From a virus (Duplodnaviria > Heunggongvirae > Uroviricota > Caudoviricetes), in the IMG/VR virus record IMGVR_UViG_3300027851_000011: 64,000 nt of DNA. One strand, 5' to 3'. Each line of letters opens with the position of its first letter. Within the stretch, counting starts at the first letter, position 1. The notes beneath the pieces were generated by a model. It made no database searches. It saw only the letters and a list, made by a program, of their open reading frames with translations, and had not been told where the DNA came from. The translations under genes and the position numbers were made by a program. This document shows, piece by piece, positions 42,289 to 52,021 of the stretch.

Positions 42289-43281
42289 ATGAGCCGCATC
42301 ACTATTGTCTCGAACCATCGCGATGCCGATGTCATCACGCACGACGGCAGCTTCCACGCCGATGAAGTCATGGCGTGCGCCATGACGTTGATCAGCCTGC
42401 GCACCTTGAACGTTCACAGGACGCGTGATCCGTCGACGATCAAGGACGCCATCATCCACGGGAAGACGGTCGTCGACGTCGGCGGCGAGAACAAGCCGGA
42501 TCTCGATGTCTTCGACCACCACCAGAAGGGCGGCGCAGGATGCCGGAAGAACGGCGTTCCGTACAGCAGCTTCGGGTTGCTGTGGAAGAAGCGCGGCGTC
42601 GATACCGTCATCGCGGCGATTCCGAACACGACGACGCTCACCACGTCGCAGGCCATCGCTGTGGCAGCCGCGATCGACGAAGGACTCGTCACCACGGTCG
42701 ATGCCACTGACAACGGCGCCGTCTTCGGTTACCAGACGCTGCGGAACTCGCCCGATGTGCGCATTCCGCAGTACAGCGTGTCGCTGATGATCCACCACCT
42801 GAACCCGCCTGCGTTCGGTGTGGCGTCACCTGTCGAGTACGACGCGGCGTTCTGCGACGCCGTCGAGTTCGCAGCTGGTATCCTGCGGCGCGAGATCGAG
42901 CACACCATCGCTCGCGTCGTCAGCGAGACGCGTGTGCGAGACGCGATGCGTGAAGCCCTGGACGCCAAGGTTCTGATCCTCGATCAGTTCGAAGCTGCGA
43001 TGAGCGACATCGTGATGGAGTCGCCGTCGCTGCTCTACTGCATCTTCCCGGACCAACGCGGAACGTGGATGGTACAGCAGGTCGCGAAGACCAAGGGCAG
43101 CTTTGAAGGGCGTGCACCGCTCCCGGCTGCGTGGGCGGGGCTGCGTGACCAGCAGCTCGCTGCGATCACGGGCGTGAACGATGCGGTGTTCTGCCACAAC
43201 GGCAGGTTCATCGCCGGTGCGAAGTCGAAAGACGGTGCCATCGCGCTCGCAGCGCTGGCCGTGTCTGCATTCGAATCCTGA
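42289..43281 (+). CDS. MYG1 (UPF0160) family exonuclease
   Basis: THDGSFHADEV, DVGG, FDHHQ, SSFGLLWK and FCHNGRFIAG motifs. Confidence 0.9.
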   Translation: MSRITIVSNHRDADVITHDGSFHADEVMACAMTLISLRTLNVHRTRDPSTIKDAIIHGKTVVDVGGENKPDLDVFDHHQKGGAGCRKNGVPYSSFGLLWKKRGVDTVIAAIPNTTTLTTSQAIAVAAAIDEGLVTTVDATDNGAVFGYQTLRNSPDVRIPQYSVSLMIHHLNPPAFGVASPVEYDAAFCDAVEFAAGILRREIEHTIARVVSETRVRDAMREALDAKVLILDQFEAAMSDIVMESPSLLYCIFPDQRGTWMVQQVAKTKGSFEGRAPLPAAWAGLRDQQLAAITGVNDAVFCHNGRFIAGAKSKDGAIALAALAVSAFES

Positions 43282-45169: not shown

Positions 45170-46627
45170 ATGTCCCGATTCAACGCTGCTGCCAAGAAGG
45201 CGAAGACCCCGATCGCCGACACCATCAACAAGGCCGGTGGCAGGGCCTACAGCATCACCCCGAAGACGGAGTTGGTGAACCTGCTCACCAGTTCGATGAT
45301 GGCAGGCAAGGGCCTGGAGAGCGACACCGAGCAGATCAACCGGCTCAAGGACCTGCTCACCAAGGTCGATCCGCTGTTCGCGGCCAAGACCGCGCTCTAT
45401 GTCCGCAAGGAGCACGGCCTGCGTTCGGTCACGCACGCCATGTCGGCGCTGCTCGCCCGCCACGCCAGTGGCCAGCCGTGGGCCACCAAGTTCTACGACA
45501 AGATCGTGCACCGAGTCGATGACGCCGGTGAGATCGTCGGCGCGCTCTGGGCGCTCACCGACACGAAGAAGGGTGTCATCCCTGGCGCCATGAAGCGCGG
45601 CTTCGGCAAGGCGCTGTCCCGCTTCAGCGAGTACCAGCTCGCCAAGTACAGCGGCGGCAAGCGCGCCGTGAAGCTGATCGACCTCGTCAACCTGACGCAC
45701 CCCAAGGGCAGCGTCGGCGTCGGCAAGCTCGTGAAGGGCAAGCTGGAGAGCGCGGACACCTGGGAGTCAGCCATCTCGGCTGCCGGCCCGGATGCCGAGA
45801 AGAAGTCCGACGAGTGGAAGCGCCTGCTCATGGACGGCAAGCTGGGCATCTTCGCCCTGCTCCGCAACGTGAACAACATCGTCGAGAGCCTCGGCGACGA
45901 CAAGAAGGCAATGGCCGCACTGGTCAGCCAGCTGACCGACGAGGCAGCCGTGAAGAAGAGCCTGATCCTCCCCTTCCAGTACGCCAAGGCGATCGAGGCC
46001 GTGGAAGAGAAGGGTGGGGCGAAGGGCTTCGTGCTGGATGCGCTGCGTGATGCCCTCGAACTGTCCCTGAACAACGTTCCCGATCTCGTCGGCGACACCG
46101 TTGTGGTGCTCGACGTCAGCGGGTCGATGTCCGGTGACCCGGTGAAGATCGGCGCTCTGTTCAGCGCCGTGCTGATCAAGGCCCTGAAGGAGCGCTGCAC
46201 GTTCGTGATGTTCGCGACCGACGCAAAGATCATCAACGTGTCGACCCGGCCGGGTACGTGGGAGATCCGCAACGAGATCATGAAGAAGTGCGGCGGCGGA
46301 GGCACCAACTTCCACGCCATCTTCCAGACGCTCAAGCAGCACAAGATCAGCGCTGAACGCGTGCTGATCCTGTCCGACATGATGGGGTGGATGGGCTTCG
46401 AGACGCCGCAGTCGCACGCCTCTGATTGGGCGCGCACCTGCTGCAAGGTGAAGCCGACCATCTACAACTGGAACCTGAACGCGGCTGGCACGAGCCAGTT
46501 CACGCAGAGCCAGTACCTCGACATCGTGGCGATCTCGGGGTGGTCAGACAAGGTCTTCGATCAGATCAACAACGCCGAAGAGGACCCTGAGCTGGTCCTC
46601 CAGGCGATCGAAGCCACCGAACTGTAG
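45170..46627 (+). CDS. rsr: Ro60/Rsr RNA-binding protein (TROVE + vWA domains)
   Basis: INKAGGRAY; LFAAKTALYVRKEHGLRSV; YQLAKY; LTHPK; TWES; LLRNVNNI; MIDAS LDVSGSM; GGGTNF; ILSD. Confidence 0.92.
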   Translation: MSRFNAAAKKAKTPIADTINKAGGRAYSITPKTELVNLLTSSMMAGKGLESDTEQINRLKDLLTKVDPLFAAKTALYVRKEHGLRSVTHAMSALLARHASGQPWATKFYDKIVHRVDDAGEIVGALWALTDTKKGVIPGAMKRGFGKALSRFSEYQLAKYSGGKRAVKLIDLVNLTHPKGSVGVGKLVKGKLESADTWESAISAAGPDAEKKSDEWKRLLMDGKLGIFALLRNVNNIVESLGDDKKAMAALVSQLTDEAAVKKSLILPFQYAKAIEAVEEKGGAKGFVLDALRDALELSLNNVPDLVGDTVVVLDVSGSMSGDPVKIGALFSAVLIKALKERCTFVMFATDAKIINVSTRPGTWEIRNEIMKKCGGGGTNFHAIFQTLKQHKISAERVLILSDMMGWMGFETPQSHASDWARTCCKVKPTIYNWNLNAAGTSQFTQSQYLDIVAISGWSDKVFDQINNAEEDPELVLQAIEATEL

Positions 46628-46644
46628 TAGTGCATATTTGTTGT

Positions 46645-46671
46645 TGACAGTTTCGCTGGCGTCATACGCTC
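46645..46671 (+). promoter_or_regulatory. putative promoter TTGACA-N15-TACGCT for the ncRNA array
   Basis: Lies between the Ro60 stop and the first element; same geometry as 7418; coordinates approximate. Confidence 0.35.
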
Positions 46672-46742
46672 ACGCGCATGACGCCAGCGAACAGTTTTGT
46701 CGTGGATTGGTTGACAACTCGTTCCTGATTTTCTGAATCCTC

Positions 46743-46833
46743 GCTGTGTGGCGAGCGAAGCCGTTCCTTCTAGCCCGGTGTGGTTCGCCACTCGGGGCTG
46801 CCAAAAACAAACGGCCCGCGATTTTCCCACAGC
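46743..46833 (+). ncRNA. Y-RNA-like element 1 (free-standing)
   Basis: GCTGTG/CACAGC basal stem, bulged U, GG/CC, CGA internal loop; 23-nt motif at 46748. Confidence 0.7.
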
Positions 46834-46840
46834 TTTTCAC

Positions 46841-46918
46841 TGCGGAGTGGAGAAGTCTGGCTATCTCGCTGCCCTCATAAGGCAGAGTTCACTGGTTCAA
46901 ATCCAGTCTCCGCAACCA
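46841..46918 (+). tRNA. tRNA-Met(CAT)
   Basis: Full cloverleaf: TGCGGAG/CTCCGCA, loop CTCATAA, TTCAAAT, encoded CCA. Confidence 0.9.
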
Positions 46919-46920
46919 CA

Positions 46921-46983
46921 GGCCGTGGCGACCTCGACGGTTACTTCTCTGGCAAGTTACCCCGTCATGGAACTATCCCGGCC
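46921..46983 (+). ncRNA. Y-RNA-like element 2 (free-standing)
   Basis: GGCCG/CGGCC and GACGG/CCGTC stems; motif at 46925. Confidence 0.75.
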
Positions 46984-47020
46984 CTTTCTCCCAACCACCA
47001 ACACCTCAAAGGAGGCTCTC

Positions 47021-47221
47021 ATGGACGACAACGAGAATGCCTACAAGCCCACCAAGGAACAGCGGCTGGAGATGGCGAAGAGCCATCTGCGCGCCGCGAA
47101 GGCCGGTGGCTGTCCCCTCGATCAGATCATGATGCTGACGGAGCAGATCCGCAGCATCGAGATGGAAGCGGCTCCCGCTGCTCCCGATCTCAAGCGCCGG
47201 CTGGAGCCGGTCGCCCTCTGA
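47021..47221 (+). CDS. 66-aa hypothetical protein embedded in the ncRNA array
   Basis: AAAGGAGG RBS. Confidence 0.7.
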   Translation: MDDNENAYKPTKEQRLEMAKSHLRAAKAGGCPLDQIMMLTEQIRSIEMEAAPAAPDLKRRLEPVAL

Positions 47222-47278
47222 TCTGATGCTGACGGTGTCTTGCGACGCCGTCCCTGTATAGAGTAAGCAGGAGTTCAT

Positions 47279-47413
47279 GGACGCCGTAGCTCAGCTGGTA
47301 GAGCAATAGTCCGAAAAGCCCGACTCATTTATGCCGGCGCAAGCCGTGCCGAGAGACCCGGTTACTTCAAACCAAACTATGGGTCAAAGGTTCGAATCCT
47401 TTCGGCGTCCCCA
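47279..47413 (+). ncRNA. tRNA-scaffold/Y-RNA chimera A (element 3)
   Basis: Acceptor GACGCCG/CGGCGTC + C + CCA; D arm; T arm; 65-nt insert in place of the anticodon loop, with the motif at 47346. Confidence 0.8.
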
Positions 47414-47415
47414 AA

Positions 47416-47482
47416 GACAAGTGGCGAGCCCGTCGGTTACTTCATTGCAAACGAAACACACCGTAGGCATTTTTCCCTTGTC
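47416..47482 (+). ncRNA. Y-RNA-like element 4 (free-standing)
   Basis: GACAAG/CTTGTC, GCC/GGC and CGGT/ACCG stems; motif at 47421. Confidence 0.75.
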
Positions 47483-47496
47483 GTTCTTTTCAAACA

Positions 47497-47559
47497 GGCC
47501 GTGGCGATCGACGCAGTTACTTCTTGGAACGAAACACACTGCCCGAAACTTTCCCGGCC
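47497..47559 (+). ncRNA. Y-RNA-like element 5 (free-standing)
   Basis: GGCCG/CGGCC, TCG/CGA and GCAGT/ACTGC stems; motif at 47501. Confidence 0.75.
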
Positions 47560-47566
47560 CTTGGAT

Positions 47567-47696
47567 GGTGCAGTAGCTCAGTGGTTAGAGCACGTAAATA
47601 CCCGTCAGCAATGATCCCGCCTAACGGTGTGGCGAGCACGGCGGTTACTTCTTGTTAAGAACGTGGTCGTTGGTTCGAATCCAACCTGCACCGCCA
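47567..47696 (+). ncRNA. tRNA-scaffold/Y-RNA chimera B (element 6)
   Basis: GGTGCAG/CTGCACC + G + CCA; D and T arms; insert with the motif at 47629. Confidence 0.8.
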
Positions 47697-47732
47697 CTAC
47701 ATCTCACGCGTCAGACCAACTGACGCAGGCTT

Positions 47733-47836
47733 GGGGAGGCCGCCCAACGGCTGGGCACTCCGTCCGCATCTTTCCCGCCTTCGGGTGTGGCGAGCATGAC
47801 GGTTCCTTCCAGGTTCGAATCCTGGCCTCCCCACCA
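47733..47836 (+). ncRNA. tRNA-scaffold/Y-RNA chimera C (element 7)
   Basis: GGGGAGG/CCTCCCC + A + CCA; anticodon arm replaced by a TTCG-capped hairpin with the motif at 47787. Confidence 0.8.
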
Positions 47837-47839
47837 CGC

Positions 47840-47904
47840 GCGTCGTAGCGAGCTACTCGGTTCCTTCACTCATCGCAAGACACCGACAGCGTTTTTCTCG
47901 GCGC
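47840..47904 (+). ncRNA. Y-RNA-like element 8 (free-standing)
   Basis: GCGTCG/CGGCGC, AG/CT, GCT/AGC and TCGGT/ACCGA stems; motif at 47845. Confidence 0.7.
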
Positions 47905-47978
47905 CTTTTCCTCGACACCCATGGCCCATCGCCGTGGGTGTTTTCGTTTTTACTCACCGTACCAACCCAGGAGCCCGC

Positions 47979-48497
47979 ATGGCAACGGCCATCACCCCGA
48001 CCAACAAGAAGCCAAGGCACCACGATCCGCTCCGCGACGTGGCCGAGAAGCGCTTCGCTGAACACAAAGCCGATGCCGCGCGCAAGGCTGTCGCTGACCG
48101 CCGTGCCAAGGCGAAGTCCAACTTCAACCACGTCCTGGAGAGCGCGAAGATCGCGCTCGATGAAAATAACGAGTTCATCCTCCCTGCCGACTACTGTTTG
48201 GTGGATGTGCTCGCAGCCGGCGTCATCGGCAAACCCGTTCGTCTGGACGAAGACCGCCTCACGGTCATGGTCAACGGCAAGCGCAGCTACACCTGTGGCC
48301 GGGTGATGTTCAGCGCCACTGGCGCGATCATCGGCGTCGAGATGAAGCACATCGTGAAGACCGGGCCGAAGGGCCGCGCGTATCAGCTGATCGCGTACGG
48401 CACCGGCGTCCAGGAAAGCCAGTGGGACAAGCTCGTCATCGACTGGCATCTGCTCAACAAGAACAACACGGCGGGGTTCCCTCGCCGCATCCTCTAA
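47979..48497 (+). CDS. hypothetical protein
   Basis: AGGAG RBS; strong codon bias. Confidence 0.7.
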   Translation: MATAITPTNKKPRHHDPLRDVAEKRFAEHKADAARKAVADRRAKAKSNFNHVLESAKIALDENNEFILPADYCLVDVLAAGVIGKPVRLDEDRLTVMVNGKRSYTCGRVMFSATGAIIGVEMKHIVKTGPKGRAYQLIAYGTGVQESQWDKLVIDWHLLNKNNTAGFPRRIL

Positions 48498-48505
48498 GGA
48501 ACCCG

Positions 48506-48628
48506 ATGGACAAGTTTGGACCTCTCGTCGGTGGCGTCGTCGTCTTCGTGCTGGTCATCGCCAGCTTTGTCGTGCTTCAGCGGAAGCTCGACAAGATCGA
48601 CGCCGACATCGACGGCAAGCTGCTCTAG
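48506..48628 (+). CDS. 40-aa membrane peptide
   Basis: AAGGA RBS; one hydrophobic helix. Confidence 0.6.
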   Translation: MDKFGPLVGGVVVFVLVIASFVVLQRKLDKIDADIDGKLL

Positions 48629-48691
48629 GGTCGACTCTCGCGGCATCCAGCCGCAGACGAGGTGGACGAATCCACCATATAGGAGTCCGTC

Positions 48692-48868
48692 ATGGACGCC
48701 TCAACGACCCGAGTCAGCCCCACAAACAACGATGAGAATCCCTTCGCGATTGCCGGTGAGATCATCACGGTCGCAACTGGCATTCTCGGGATCCTCGCAA
48801 TGGGCGTGGCCTCGCTTGGGCAGACCGCCGCACAGCAGGAGCAGAAGCTGAAGGACGCAACTCCTTAG
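48692..48868 (+). CDS. 58-aa membrane peptide (not in the ORF track)
   Basis: AGGAG RBS; IITVATGILGILAMGVASL. Confidence 0.55.
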   Translation: MDASTTRVSPTNNDENPFAIAGEIITVATGILGILAMGVASLGQTAAQQEQKLKDATP

Positions 48869-49028
48869 GCCGATGCAATCCGTCTTCTGTCGTGCGGTTC
48901 CGATCGTCGTCTGTTGCTTGACGGAGCAGCAGACGACCTTTTCACAAGGAGACATACGTGGGCAACGTGCGCGTCATCCTGTAACTGGTAGAAGGCTGGA
49001 GTTGAATGTAAACGCTGTGCACAGCTAG

Positions 49029-51945: not shown

Positions 51946-52021
51946 TGGCTCCGAGACCAGGACTCGAACCTGGGACCTTGATGTTAACAGCATCTTGCTC
52001 TACCAACTGAGCTATCTCGGA
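51946..52021 (-). tRNA. tRNA-Asn(GTT)
   Basis: Cloverleaf TCCGAGA/TCTCGGA, loop CTGTTAA, G discriminator, CCA. Confidence 0.92.

What the first reader, a model, noticed from the sequence alone, without database searches (positions are those of the whole stretch)
47279..47836. Three CCA-ending tRNA bodies whose anticodon arm is replaced by the Ro-binding hairpin (permuted YrlA topology)
Seen: 47279-47413, 47567-47696 and 47733-47836 each have a 7-bp acceptor stem, a D arm, a TTCGAAT T arm, a discriminator and an encoded CCA. In place of the anticodon loop sits the same bulged helix as in the free elements, here capped by a tetraloop (GCAA, TAAC, TTCG). Known: YrlA mimics tRNA, but its ends lie in the Ro-binding stem and its acceptor-like stem is closed by a loop. 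Inference: these are circular permutations with a real acceptor end, so they could be processed by RNase P and possibly aminoacylated while recruiting Ro60. I do not recognise this arrangement as described.
Basis: partly seen in the sequence, partly recalled or inferred. Interest (0 to 1): 0.9.

Follow-up and report, generated by a model that had tools for sequence, protein, structure and literature searches.

The report
tRNA-ended Y RNAs beside phage Ro60
Three small RNA genes next to a phage Ro60 gene are built as normal-ended tRNAs that carry the Ro60-docking stem of Y RNAs as an extra arm, a wiring of this RNA family that I could not find described in print and that databases tend to label as intron-containing tRNAs.

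Summary
The units at 47280-47413, 47567-47696 and 47733-47836 each have a 7-bp acceptor stem, D arm, UUCGAAU T arm, discriminator and encoded CCA. Each also carries a hairpin-closed copy of the bulged GNCGA helix found in five free Y-like elements nearby.

They lie just downstream of a TROVE/Ro60 gene on a freshwater phage contig.

At least 20 further distinct examples occur in other phage, metagenome and archaeal-virus DNA. About half of the fetched stretches also hold a Ro60 gene. Compensatory changes support the acceptor, D, T and Ro-arm helices.

Relatives with the usual wiring share the same motif and match Rfam YrlA weakly. The window's units match only the tRNA model.

One refinement: the Ro arm is usually an insertion into the 5' strand of the anticodon stem, and a 7-nt anticodon-like loop is often retained, as in unit 2. 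It replaces the loop in unit 1 and the whole arm in unit 3.

Best reading (about 0.7): one-piece, tRNA-processed YrlA-type Y RNAs. Splicing to ordinary tRNAs is not excluded for unit 2. RNase P processing, charging and Ro60 binding are untested.

I found no published description. Halovirus HGTV-1's copy is annotated as a tRNA with an intron. Earlier notes of this scan reached the same reading on other phage DNA.

The parts
45170..46627 (+). Ro60 (TROVE + vWA) gene
   Evidence: Pfam TROVE E 4.9e-20. PHROG 850 'RNA-binding protein' over the full length, E 1.2e-46. Matches Thermus phage phiLo Ro60 (9L5Y/9KOP) at E 7e-21 and D. radiodurans Rsr (2NVO) at E 2.5e-6.
46743..46833 (+). Free Y-like element A: ends in the bulged helix, long apical hairpin
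   Evidence: Motif at 46750-46770. Fold (z -2.75).
46841..46918 (+). Ordinary tRNA-Met (CAU) with encoded CCA, inside the RNA cluster
   Evidence: ARAGORN. Rfam tRNA 61.3 bits.
46921..46983 (+). Free Y-like element B (GGCCG...CGGCC terminal stem)
   Evidence: Motif at 46927-46947. Fold.
47280..47413 (+). Unit 1: tRNA body with the Ro arm in place of the anticodon loop. Stem 47306-47310/47376-47380, GCAA loop 47339-47342, GUGCCGA 47346-47352, GUUACUUC 47361-47368. Discriminator C, CCA encoded.
   Evidence: Rfam tRNA 53.6 bits with a 62-nt insert. ARAGORN -i places the 'intron' at 35/36. Constrained folds. Compensatory G:C to C:G change in the bulged helix.
47417..47481 (+). Free Y-like element C
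   Evidence: Motif at 47423-47443. ACAAG/CUUGU terminal stem read.
47497..47559 (+). Free Y-like element D
   Evidence: Motif at 47503-47523. Fold z -2.03.
47567..47696 (+). Unit 2: complete cloverleaf with the Ro arm inserted in the 5' strand of the anticodon stem. Outer pairs 47593-47594/47662-47663, UAAC loop 47622-47625, GUGGCGA 47629-47635, GUUACUUC 47644-47651. It keeps the 7-nt loop UUGUUAA at 47652-47658. Discriminator G, CCA encoded.
   Evidence: Rfam tRNA 50.8 bits with a 65-nt insert. Split-stem analysis gives 5/5 pairs only at the true offset. Without the arm, ARAGORN calls it tRNA-Asn(GUU).
47733..47836 (+). Unit 3: acceptor, D and T arms with the Ro arm replacing the whole anticodon arm and variable loop. 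UUCG loop 47780-47783. Positions 8-9 are CC. Discriminator A, CCA encoded.
   Evidence: Sequence. Motif at 47789-47809. The constrained fold at -46.9 is close to the MFE at -48.4 kcal/mol and has the proposed architecture. No Rfam tRNA hit.
47840..47904 (+). Free Y-like element E (variant motif GUAGCGAGC-N-GGUUCCUUC)
   Evidence: Sequence. Fold.
47914..47950 (+). Terminator-like hairpin and U tract closing the RNA cluster
   Evidence: 12-bp stem, 7 GC pairs, then TTCGTTTTT.

Best explanation
The three units are YrlA-type Y RNAs in unpermuted (tRNA) order. Each is a tRNA body with a genuine 5' end and a 3' CCA end, and it displays the Ro60-docking bulged helix as an arm growing out of the anticodon stem or loop.

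They are probably transcribed with tRNA-Met and the five free Y-like elements as one cluster downstream of the phage Ro60 gene. That cluster would then be cut up by the host's tRNA-end machinery (RNase P and 3' trimming). The products would carry stable tRNA-type ends, and the adjacent free Y-like RNAs would be released by the same cuts.

Ro60 would bind the arm, and the tRNA body would act as the effector or tether module, as proposed for the tRNA-like domain of YrlA. In effect this is a one-piece version of what M. smegmatis makes in two pieces by cutting YrlA with RNase P and adding CCA.

Shown here: the anatomy, the conservation, the covariation and the linkage to Ro60. Inferred: transcription as one unit, processing, Ro60 binding and the role of the tRNA body.
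For: - **Ro60 next door.** The gene ends 650 nt upstream on the same strand.
- **Motif clustering.** GGCGA-N8-GUUMCUUC occurs 6 times against 0 expected, all within this cluster. The first part fits the published YrlA motif GNCGAA (PMC4201824).
- **Shared with known YrlA.** The same motif and 3' strand (UUGUUCCC) occur in usual-topology RNAs in L007, L092, L209, L245, L106 and L109. These match Rfam YrlA at E 1e-8 to 2e-3.
- **Recurrence.** The open-acceptor form recurs in at least 20 distinct sequences from viral, metagenome and genome contigs.
- **Covariation.** On 20 sequences, acceptor, D and T stems are 100% paired, with 7/7, 3/4 and 3/5 pairs changed on both sides. Ro-arm helix 2 is 87% paired with 4/5 pairs compensatory. 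The covariation score is 0.657 against 0.208 in shuffles (0 of 500 reach it) and at most 0.18 when the partners are slid.
- **Bulged-helix register.** It is supported by G:C to C:G in unit 1 and G:C to A:U in L151 and L123a.
- **Ro60 in the fetched stretch.** Found in 9 of 25 such loci: L122, L135, L151, L158, L205, L225, L227, L256, L266. It lies elsewhere on the L123/L054 contig.
- **CCA follows the genome's real tRNAs.** Window: 3/3 tRNAs and 3/3 units. L151: 13/13 and 2/2. L123: 1/14 and 0/2. L054: 2/12 and 0/1. L135: 2/11 and 0/1. L158: 1/21 and 0/1.
- **Not ordinary tRNAs.** Units 1 and 3 have no usable anticodon loop. Several relatives pair Leu or Ser anticodons with short variable loops.
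Against: - No RNA data. No usable RNA run was found, and the contigs laid cannot show ends.
- Ro60 binding rests on motif resemblance and gene linkage only.
- Thermodynamic folding alone does not favour the comparative model of unit 2 (-29.7 against an MFE of -44.5 kcal/mol). That is expected for protein-bound internal loops, but it gives no support.
- Removing the arm in silico gives a well-formed tRNA in all 20 cases, so a precursor role is possible.
- 14 of 25 fetched stretches hold no Ro60. One complete 33-kb phage (L026) has a chimera but no TROVE gene.
- The sequences used for covariation were partly selected for a pairing acceptor stem.
Confidence: 0.7

Rival explanations
1. Intron-bearing pre-tRNAs. 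The Ro arm is cut out and the halves are rejoined, for example by an RtcB-type ligase. This would yield an ordinary tRNA (unit 2 would become tRNA-Asn GUU with G73) plus a hairpin Y RNA.
For: Deleting the arm gives ARAGORN-recognised 73-77-nt tRNAs in 20 of 20 cases, mostly with 7-nt loops carrying U33 and a purine at 37. The insertion point slides along the anticodon-stem 5' strand (after 0, 1, 2, 3 or 5 pairs), as non-canonical archaeal introns do (established knowledge). The HGTV-1 copy is annotated 'tRNA-Asp + intron' and lies beside an RtcB gene.
Against: Units 1 and 3 and L205 give no normal anticodon loop or arm. L123c, L266, L135 and L224 would be Leu or Ser tRNAs with short variable loops. 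The insert is not at 37/38, and I saw no bulge-helix-bulge. It is far too short for a group I intron, and there is no Rfam intron hit. No splicing endonuclease of this kind is known in bacteria (Wang et al. 2018). No ligase or endonuclease was found among the ORFs scanned. Closed-acceptor relatives keep the same anticodon-like hairpin although they cannot be tRNAs.
Confidence: 0.12
2. Working tRNAs with an extra arm. At least unit 2 would be charged and used in translation, or by EF-Tu or other tRNA users, while Ro60 rides on it.
For: Full set of tRNA core nucleotides (U8, A14, G18G19, C48, T loop), an encoded CCA, a 7-nt loop UUGUUAA and a G73 that fits Asn identity. Chen et al. raised aminoacylation as a possibility for RNase P-cut M. 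smegmatis YrlA.
Against: A ~55-nt arm, with a 60-kDa ring bound, at the anticodon stem is hard to fit in the ribosome (inference). Units 1 and 3 lack an anticodon. The phage already has a normal tRNA-Asn at 51946-52021.
Confidence: 0.08
3. Dead tRNA genes disrupted by copies of a repeated Y-like element: pseudogenes with no function of their own.
For: Eight copies of the element lie within 1.2 kb. Units 2 and 3 have near-identical arms, which suggests recent duplication.
Against: The same architecture is kept in distant phages of 35-60% GC, with compensatory changes in all helices. Acceptor stems are intact. The CCA convention follows each genome's real tRNAs.
Confidence: 0.05

Closest known systems
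YrlA (Y RNA-like A; Rfam RF02553; Chen et al. 2014 PMC4201824; Wang et al. 2018 bioRxiv 10.1101/312249)
   Same: Encoded next to Ro60. Has a bulged helix with GNCGA(A) in the 5' strand. Has a tRNA-like module with conserved D arm (UAGCUCA..GGUAGAGC) and T arm (GGUUCGAAUCC). Often has an extra hairpin before the T arm ('V' in Chen et al.).
   Different: In YrlA the RNA ends lie in the Ro stem and the acceptor stem is closed by a loop. Here the ends are a real acceptor stem with discriminator and CCA, and the Ro stem is closed by a tetraloop. RF02553 does not detect the window's units.
[quoted passage not shown] 2014)
   Same: Ends up with an open 7-bp acceptor stem and a CCA tail on a Ro60-bound tRNA mimic.
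   Different: It is made post-transcriptionally and consists of two base-paired halves. Here the open acceptor is encoded in the gene order and the RNA is one piece.
Thermus phage phiLo Ro60 with Yrl1/Yrl2 (PMC12135203)
   Same: A phage Ro60 (E 7e-21 to this one) with adjacent small RNAs carrying a CGAA-type bulge. It resembles the window's five free elements.
   Different: No tRNA module or acceptor end is described for Yrl1 or Yrl2.
Circularly permuted tRNA genes and two-piece tmRNA genes (established knowledge; permuted tRNAs cited in Wang et al. 2018)
   Same: The same RNA fold is encoded in two gene orders related by circular permutation.
   Different: Those are permuted forms of normal RNAs that are processed back. 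Here the 'normal' order is the newly seen one for a Y RNA.
Halovirus HGTV-1 'tRNA-Asp (gtc) + intron' (KC292026, 70440-70571)
   Same: The same chimera: 7-bp acceptor, Ro arm (GGAGCGA-N8-GUUACUUC) inserted after 2 bp of the anticodon stem, TROVE gene 3 kb away. R1 scores it at 66.7 bits.
   Different: It is annotated and discussed only as an intron-containing tRNA (PMC13532342). The host is an archaeon with a splicing endonuclease, and the 3' CCA is not encoded.

Membership tests
YrlA-type Y RNA (RF02553) | Bulged helix with the conserved 5'-strand motif GNCGA(A) | tested here: met
   GUGGCGAG, GUGCCGAG and GUGGCGAG in units 2, 1 and 3. The motif is 6 times against 0 expected. The bulge register is supported by compensatory changes.
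YrlA-type Y RNA (RF02553) | tRNA-like module with D and T arms | tested here: met
   Rfam tRNA hits for units 1 and 2. Arms of unit 3 read from the sequence.
YrlA-type Y RNA (RF02553) | 5' and 3' ends in the Ro-binding stem; acceptor-like stem closed by a loop | tested here: not met
   The order is acceptor 5' strand, D arm, Ro 3' strand, tetraloop, Ro 5' strand, T arm, acceptor 3' strand, CCA.
YrlA-type Y RNA (RF02553) | Match to the Rfam covariance model | tested here: not met
   No RF02553 hit in 46000-49000 at E up to 10. Usual-topology relatives with the same motif score 32-51 bits, E 1e-8 to 2e-3, below the gathering score of 69.
YrlA-type Y RNA (RF02553) | Encoded beside a Ro60/TROVE gene | tested here: met
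   The gene at 45170-46627 is on the same strand. 9 of 25 related fetched stretches also hold Ro60.
YrlA-type Y RNA (RF02553) | Bound by Ro60 in vivo | not testable with these tools
   Needs co-immunoprecipitation or a gel-shift assay.
tRNA (RF00005) | Cloverleaf scoring above the Rfam gathering score | tested here: inconclusive
   Units 1 and 2 pass (53.6 and 50.8 bits), but only with 62-65-nt insertions. Unit 3 gives no hit.
tRNA (RF00005) | Uninterrupted 5-bp anticodon stem with a 7-nt loop (U33, purine 37) | tested here: not met
   Unit 1 has a stem but no loop. Unit 2 has its stem interrupted after 2-3 bp. Unit 3 has no arm.
tRNA (RF00005) | Aminoacylation and decoding | not testable with these tools
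   Needs acid-gel Northern blots or charging assays.
Intron-containing tRNA genes | Intron at 37/38, or a bulge-helix-bulge junction, or a group I core | tested here: not met
   ARAGORN forces the inserts to 35/36 and 31/32. My analysis puts them after nt 28, 31 and 26. Inserts are 50-73 nt with no Rfam intron hit. Bulge-helix-bulge was checked by eye only.

The most novel reading that the evidence does not exclude
The Ro-binding arm is a separable, perhaps mobile, module that has entered many different tRNA genes. Under this reading the chimeras have a double life. Either they are charged or engage the translation and tRNA-repair machinery while carrying Ro60, or they are cut and religated to give both a working tRNA and a Y RNA. 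This would be a protein-dependent tRNA 'intron' class in phages. It would also make the tRNA-order form the ancestor from which usual YrlA arose by tandem duplication.
Probability: 0.12. Interest if true: 0.85.

Novelty: new variant of a known kind. Interest (0 to 1): 0.62.

Why it matters
- **A changed picture of YrlA.** Bacterial and phage Y RNAs of this type are described as circularly permuted tRNA mimics without a free CCA end. A widespread one-piece form with real tRNA ends changes that picture.
- **A testable prediction.** It predicts that RNase P, the CCA enzyme and possibly synthetases act on Ro60 partner RNAs.
- **A simple route between the two wirings.** Tandem arrays of tRNA-order units read from one Ro strand to the next would give the usual topology.
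- **An annotation fix.** It explains a class of 'over-long' or 'intron-containing' tRNA genes in phage and archaeal-virus annotations.
- **An experimental system.** HGTV-1 is cultured and could be used to test the idea.

Tried and rejected
- **Rfam at gathering and at E up to 10.** No YrlA hit on the window's units.
- **Closest phage record.** LR745206 (Ro60 39% identical) showed no tRNA or YrlA hit near its Ro60.
- **Single-protein locus search in viral contigs.** Found nothing. The loose 14.5-base motif scan gave mostly chance hits.
- **Sequencing runs.** No RNA holder listed. The two 'RNA?' wastewater runs are probably DNA. The contigs laid were 151-nt pieces identical or near-identical to the window, containing the inserts unspliced, plus ordinary tRNAs of other organisms that produce false 'skips' across the inserts. 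Neither counts for or against expression or splicing.
- **Thermodynamic folds alone.** They do not settle the arm's structure in units 1 and 2.
- **Model R1.** It also scores ordinary tRNAs (up to 51 bits) and tandem arrays of usual-topology YrlAs (30-46 bits). Its hits had to be checked by hand and most long hits were not open-acceptor forms. I therefore give no prevalence figure beyond a lower bound.
- **ARAGORN -i call in crAss-like phages.** The 176-nt call (L166-L194, csAssE-Sib) is a composite with two D arms, not a clean example.
- **Automatic search for the terminal helix.** It mis-registered several sequences. Only the informative variants are used.
- **Reviews not held.** PMC10870794 and PMC6047535 were unavailable, so a description there cannot be excluded.

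Full report
**Setting**

The window is phage DNA. It holds a large terminase (PHROG 675, E 3e-52), a sigma factor and three tRNAs. Its Ro60 protein is on record on a 200.8-kb contig. The only run holding nearly all of the stretch is a freshwater metagenome. No whole genome is held.

The ORF at 45170-46627 is a full-length Ro60:
- Pfam TROVE, E 4.9e-20.
- PHROG 850, E 1.2e-46.
- Thermus phage phiLo Ro60 (9L5Y), E 7e-21, and Deinococcus Rsr (2NVO), E 2.5e-6.

Between its stop codon and a terminator-like hairpin at 47914-47942 lie one ordinary tRNA-Met, a 65-codon ORF, five free Y-like hairpins and the three units in question.

**Checking the observation**

The Rfam tRNA model hits units 1 and 2 above its gathering score, with 62- and 65-nt insertions in the anticodon arm. 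Default ARAGORN misses them. With introns allowed it finds both, but places the 'introns' at 35/36 and 31/32, not at the canonical 37/38.

Unit 3 is missed by both tools. It has CC at positions 8-9 and goes straight from the Ro arm into the T stem. Its acceptor, D and T stems are clear, and the constrained fold is within 1.5 kcal/mol of the minimum.

The shared motif GGCGA-N8-GUUMCUUC occurs six times against none expected, all in this cluster. In the three units, the strand that is 3' in the free elements (..UCCC..) comes first. A tetraloop (GCAA, UAAC or UUCG) follows, and then the strand that is 5' in the free elements. The helix is therefore the same, but closed at the end that is open in the free elements.

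**Is it a YrlA-type Ro module?**

The motif fits the published YrlA signature GNCGAA (PMC4201824). The same motif, with GUUACUUC and the 3' strand UUGUUCCC, occurs in other phage contigs in RNAs of the usual order: Ro 5' strand, hairpin, T arm, acceptor hairpin, D arm, Ro 3' strand. Those relatives match Rfam YrlA RF02553 at E 1e-8 to 2e-3, below its gathering score.

The window's units give no RF02553 hit even at E up to 10. That is expected if they are circular permutations of that model.

The helix has a single bulged nucleotide after the first G of GUGG. That register is supported by G:C to C:G in unit 1 and G:C to A:U in L151 and L123a.

**Recurrence and covariation**

I gathered open-acceptor chimeras in three ways:
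- ARAGORN with introns on fetched loci.
- A specific pattern scan, which gave 7 viral, 53 metagenome and 8 genome stretches.
- Sorting those hits by whether the strand after the T arm pairs upstream or downstream.

This gave at least 20 distinct chimeras of 121-146 nt, from DNA of about 35-60% GC. A model built from them found two more with encoded CCA in L151, a 172-kb viral contig whose Ro60 is likewise followed by a tRNA cluster.

On 20 sequences:

| Helix | Cells paired | Pairs changed on both sides |
|---|---|---|
| Acceptor | 100% | 7 of 7 |
| D stem | 100% | 3 of 4 |
| T stem | 100% | 3 of 5 |
| Ro-arm helix 2 | 87% | 4 of 5 |

The covariation score is 0.657, against 0.208 in shuffles (0 of 500 reach it) and at most 0.18 with slid partners.

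A caveat applies to the acceptor figure, because sequences were partly chosen for a pairing acceptor. The D arm follows at tRNA spacing in each, and that was not selected for.

Ro60 lies within the fetched stretch in 9 of 25 such loci, usually directly next to the chimera. It lies elsewhere on the L123/L054 contig, and is absent from one complete 33-kb phage, L026.

**Where the arm sits**

In most chimeras a 5-bp stem closing a 7-nt loop can be built. Most of these loops have U33 and a purine at 37. The 5' strand of the stem is made from x nucleotides directly after nt 26 plus 5-x nucleotides directly before the loop. The commonest value is x = 2.

Several different outer pairs (CG:CG, CU:AG, GG:CC, ACG:CGU, AG:CU) give 5/5 pairs at the true offset, and rarely when the outer piece is slid. 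The Ro arm is therefore an insertion into the 5' strand of the anticodon stem.
- Unit 2 is of this kind: x = 2 or 3, loop UUGUUAA.
- Unit 1, like L205, has x = 5 and no normal loop.
- Unit 3 has no anticodon arm.

The hairpin I read as an anticodon arm is what Chen et al. call the 'V' stem-loop. Closed-acceptor relatives have it too, often with YU..RA loops.

**Spliced tRNAs?**

Deleting the arm in silico gives an ARAGORN-recognised tRNA in 20 of 20 cases. Unit 2 would be tRNA-Asn(GUU) with G73. This keeps the splicing rival alive.

Several points count against it as the general answer:
- Units 1 and 3 and L205 yield no usable anticodon.
- Four relatives combine Leu or Ser anticodons with short variable loops.
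- The insert is not at 37/38, and I saw no bulge-helix-bulge.
- It is too short for a group I intron.
- Closed-acceptor relatives keep the same hairpin.
- No such endonuclease is known in bacteria.

**tRNA-type ends**

The units encode CCA exactly where the genome's real tRNAs do:

| Locus | tRNAs with encoded CCA | Chimeras with encoded CCA |
|---|---|---|
| Window | 3 of 3 | 3 of 3 |
| L151 | 13 of 13 | 2 of 2 |
| L123 | 1 of 14 | 0 of 2 |
| L054 | 2 of 12 | 0 of 1 |
| L135 | 2 of 11 | 0 of 1 |
| L158 | 1 of 21 | 0 of 1 |

. This suggests their 3' ends are under the same constraint as tRNA 3' ends.

The free elements abut the tRNA-type units: 46918/46921, 47413/47417, 47559/47567 and 47836/47840. 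tRNA-end processing would therefore release them as well. This step is inferred.

**Comparison with what is known**

The papers held describe YrlA as resembling circularly permuted tRNAs with closed acceptor stems and no free CCA end. The one exception is M. smegmatis YrlA, which RNase P cuts in the acceptor loop and which then gains CCA, giving two paired halves.

The phage Ro60 structure paper describes only stem-bulge-stem Yrl RNAs. One preprint speculates that some annotated phage tRNA genes may be Y RNAs, without detail.

Halovirus HGTV-1 carries the same chimera. It is annotated 'tRNA-Asp + intron', lies beside RtcB and sits 3 kb from a TROVE gene. A 2026 paper mentions it only as an intron-bearing tRNA.

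Two reviews could not be read.

Earlier notes of this scan reached the same reading on other phage DNA. They are not independent evidence, and I tested the claim here on this window and on my own set of loci.

**Verdict**

- The topological interpretation is supported.
- The placement of the arm is refined.
- Function (Ro60 binding, RNase P processing, charging) is inferred only.
- It is a new variant of a known kind, of real interest to the Ro60/Y RNA and tRNA-mimicry fields, and directly testable.

Noticed in passing
window 47023-47221 (+): A 65-codon ORF with a strong AAGGAGG ribosome-binding site sits inside the RNA cluster, between free element B and unit 1. It has no Pfam hit.
   Followed up: partly
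window 42289-43281 (+): An intact MYG1-family exonuclease gene (Pfam E 4.5e-65) lies 1.9 kb upstream of Ro60 on the same strand. It is a possible nuclease partner.
   Followed up: no
L271 2971-3102 (KC292026 70440-70571): The 'tRNA-Asp + intron' of halovirus HGTV-1 is a Ro-arm chimera (GGAGCGA-N8-GUUACUUC, arm after 2 bp of the anticodon stem, loop AUCUGGA). It lies next to RtcB and near a TROVE gene. It offers a cultured system.
   Followed up: partly
L204 3067-3242 (OR575929 csAssE-Sib) and L166-L194: In crAss-like gut phages, Ro60 is preceded by a composite: an acceptor-5'/D-arm piece, a closed Ro module (GGUGA variant), then a complete tRNA-like unit annotated tRNA-Tyr. It therefore has two D arms.
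   Followed up: partly
L135 4493-4770: The acceptor 3' strand of a chimera (CAUCGGG) can pair either with its own 5' strand or with the 5' strand of the next unit (CCCGGUG, 4 nt downstream). A tandem array is thus readable in both topologies. It looks like an intermediate for circular permutation by duplication.
   Followed up: partly
L026 (IMGVR_UViG_3300037454_000552): A complete 33-kb phage with terminal repeats carries an open-acceptor chimera but no TROVE gene. It may rely on a host Ro60.
   Followed up: partly
L275 4978-5340 (Caulobacter phage CcrPW): Usual-topology units whose long acceptor 'loop' begins with ACCA right after the 3' strand, as if set up for RNase P cutting and a CCA end, like M. 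smegmatis YrlA.
   Followed up: no
L007, L092, L209, L245, L124, L137, L154 and the chimeras: The hairpin before the T arm ('V' of Chen et al.) very often has a 5-bp stem and a 7-nt loop of anticodon-loop form (YU-NNN-AA), in both topologies. The trinucleotides differ from copy to copy.
   Followed up: partly
window 47279: A G precedes unit 1 and could pair with its discriminator C, as in tRNA-His (G-1:C73). A sibling note also records this.
   Followed up: no
L266 (JAGGZZ010000025.1, Methanophagales MAG): An open-acceptor chimera with encoded CCA lies directly upstream of a Ro60 gene on a 2.6-kb contig binned with an ANME-1 archaeon. It may be an archaeal virus fragment or a binning error.
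   Followed up: no
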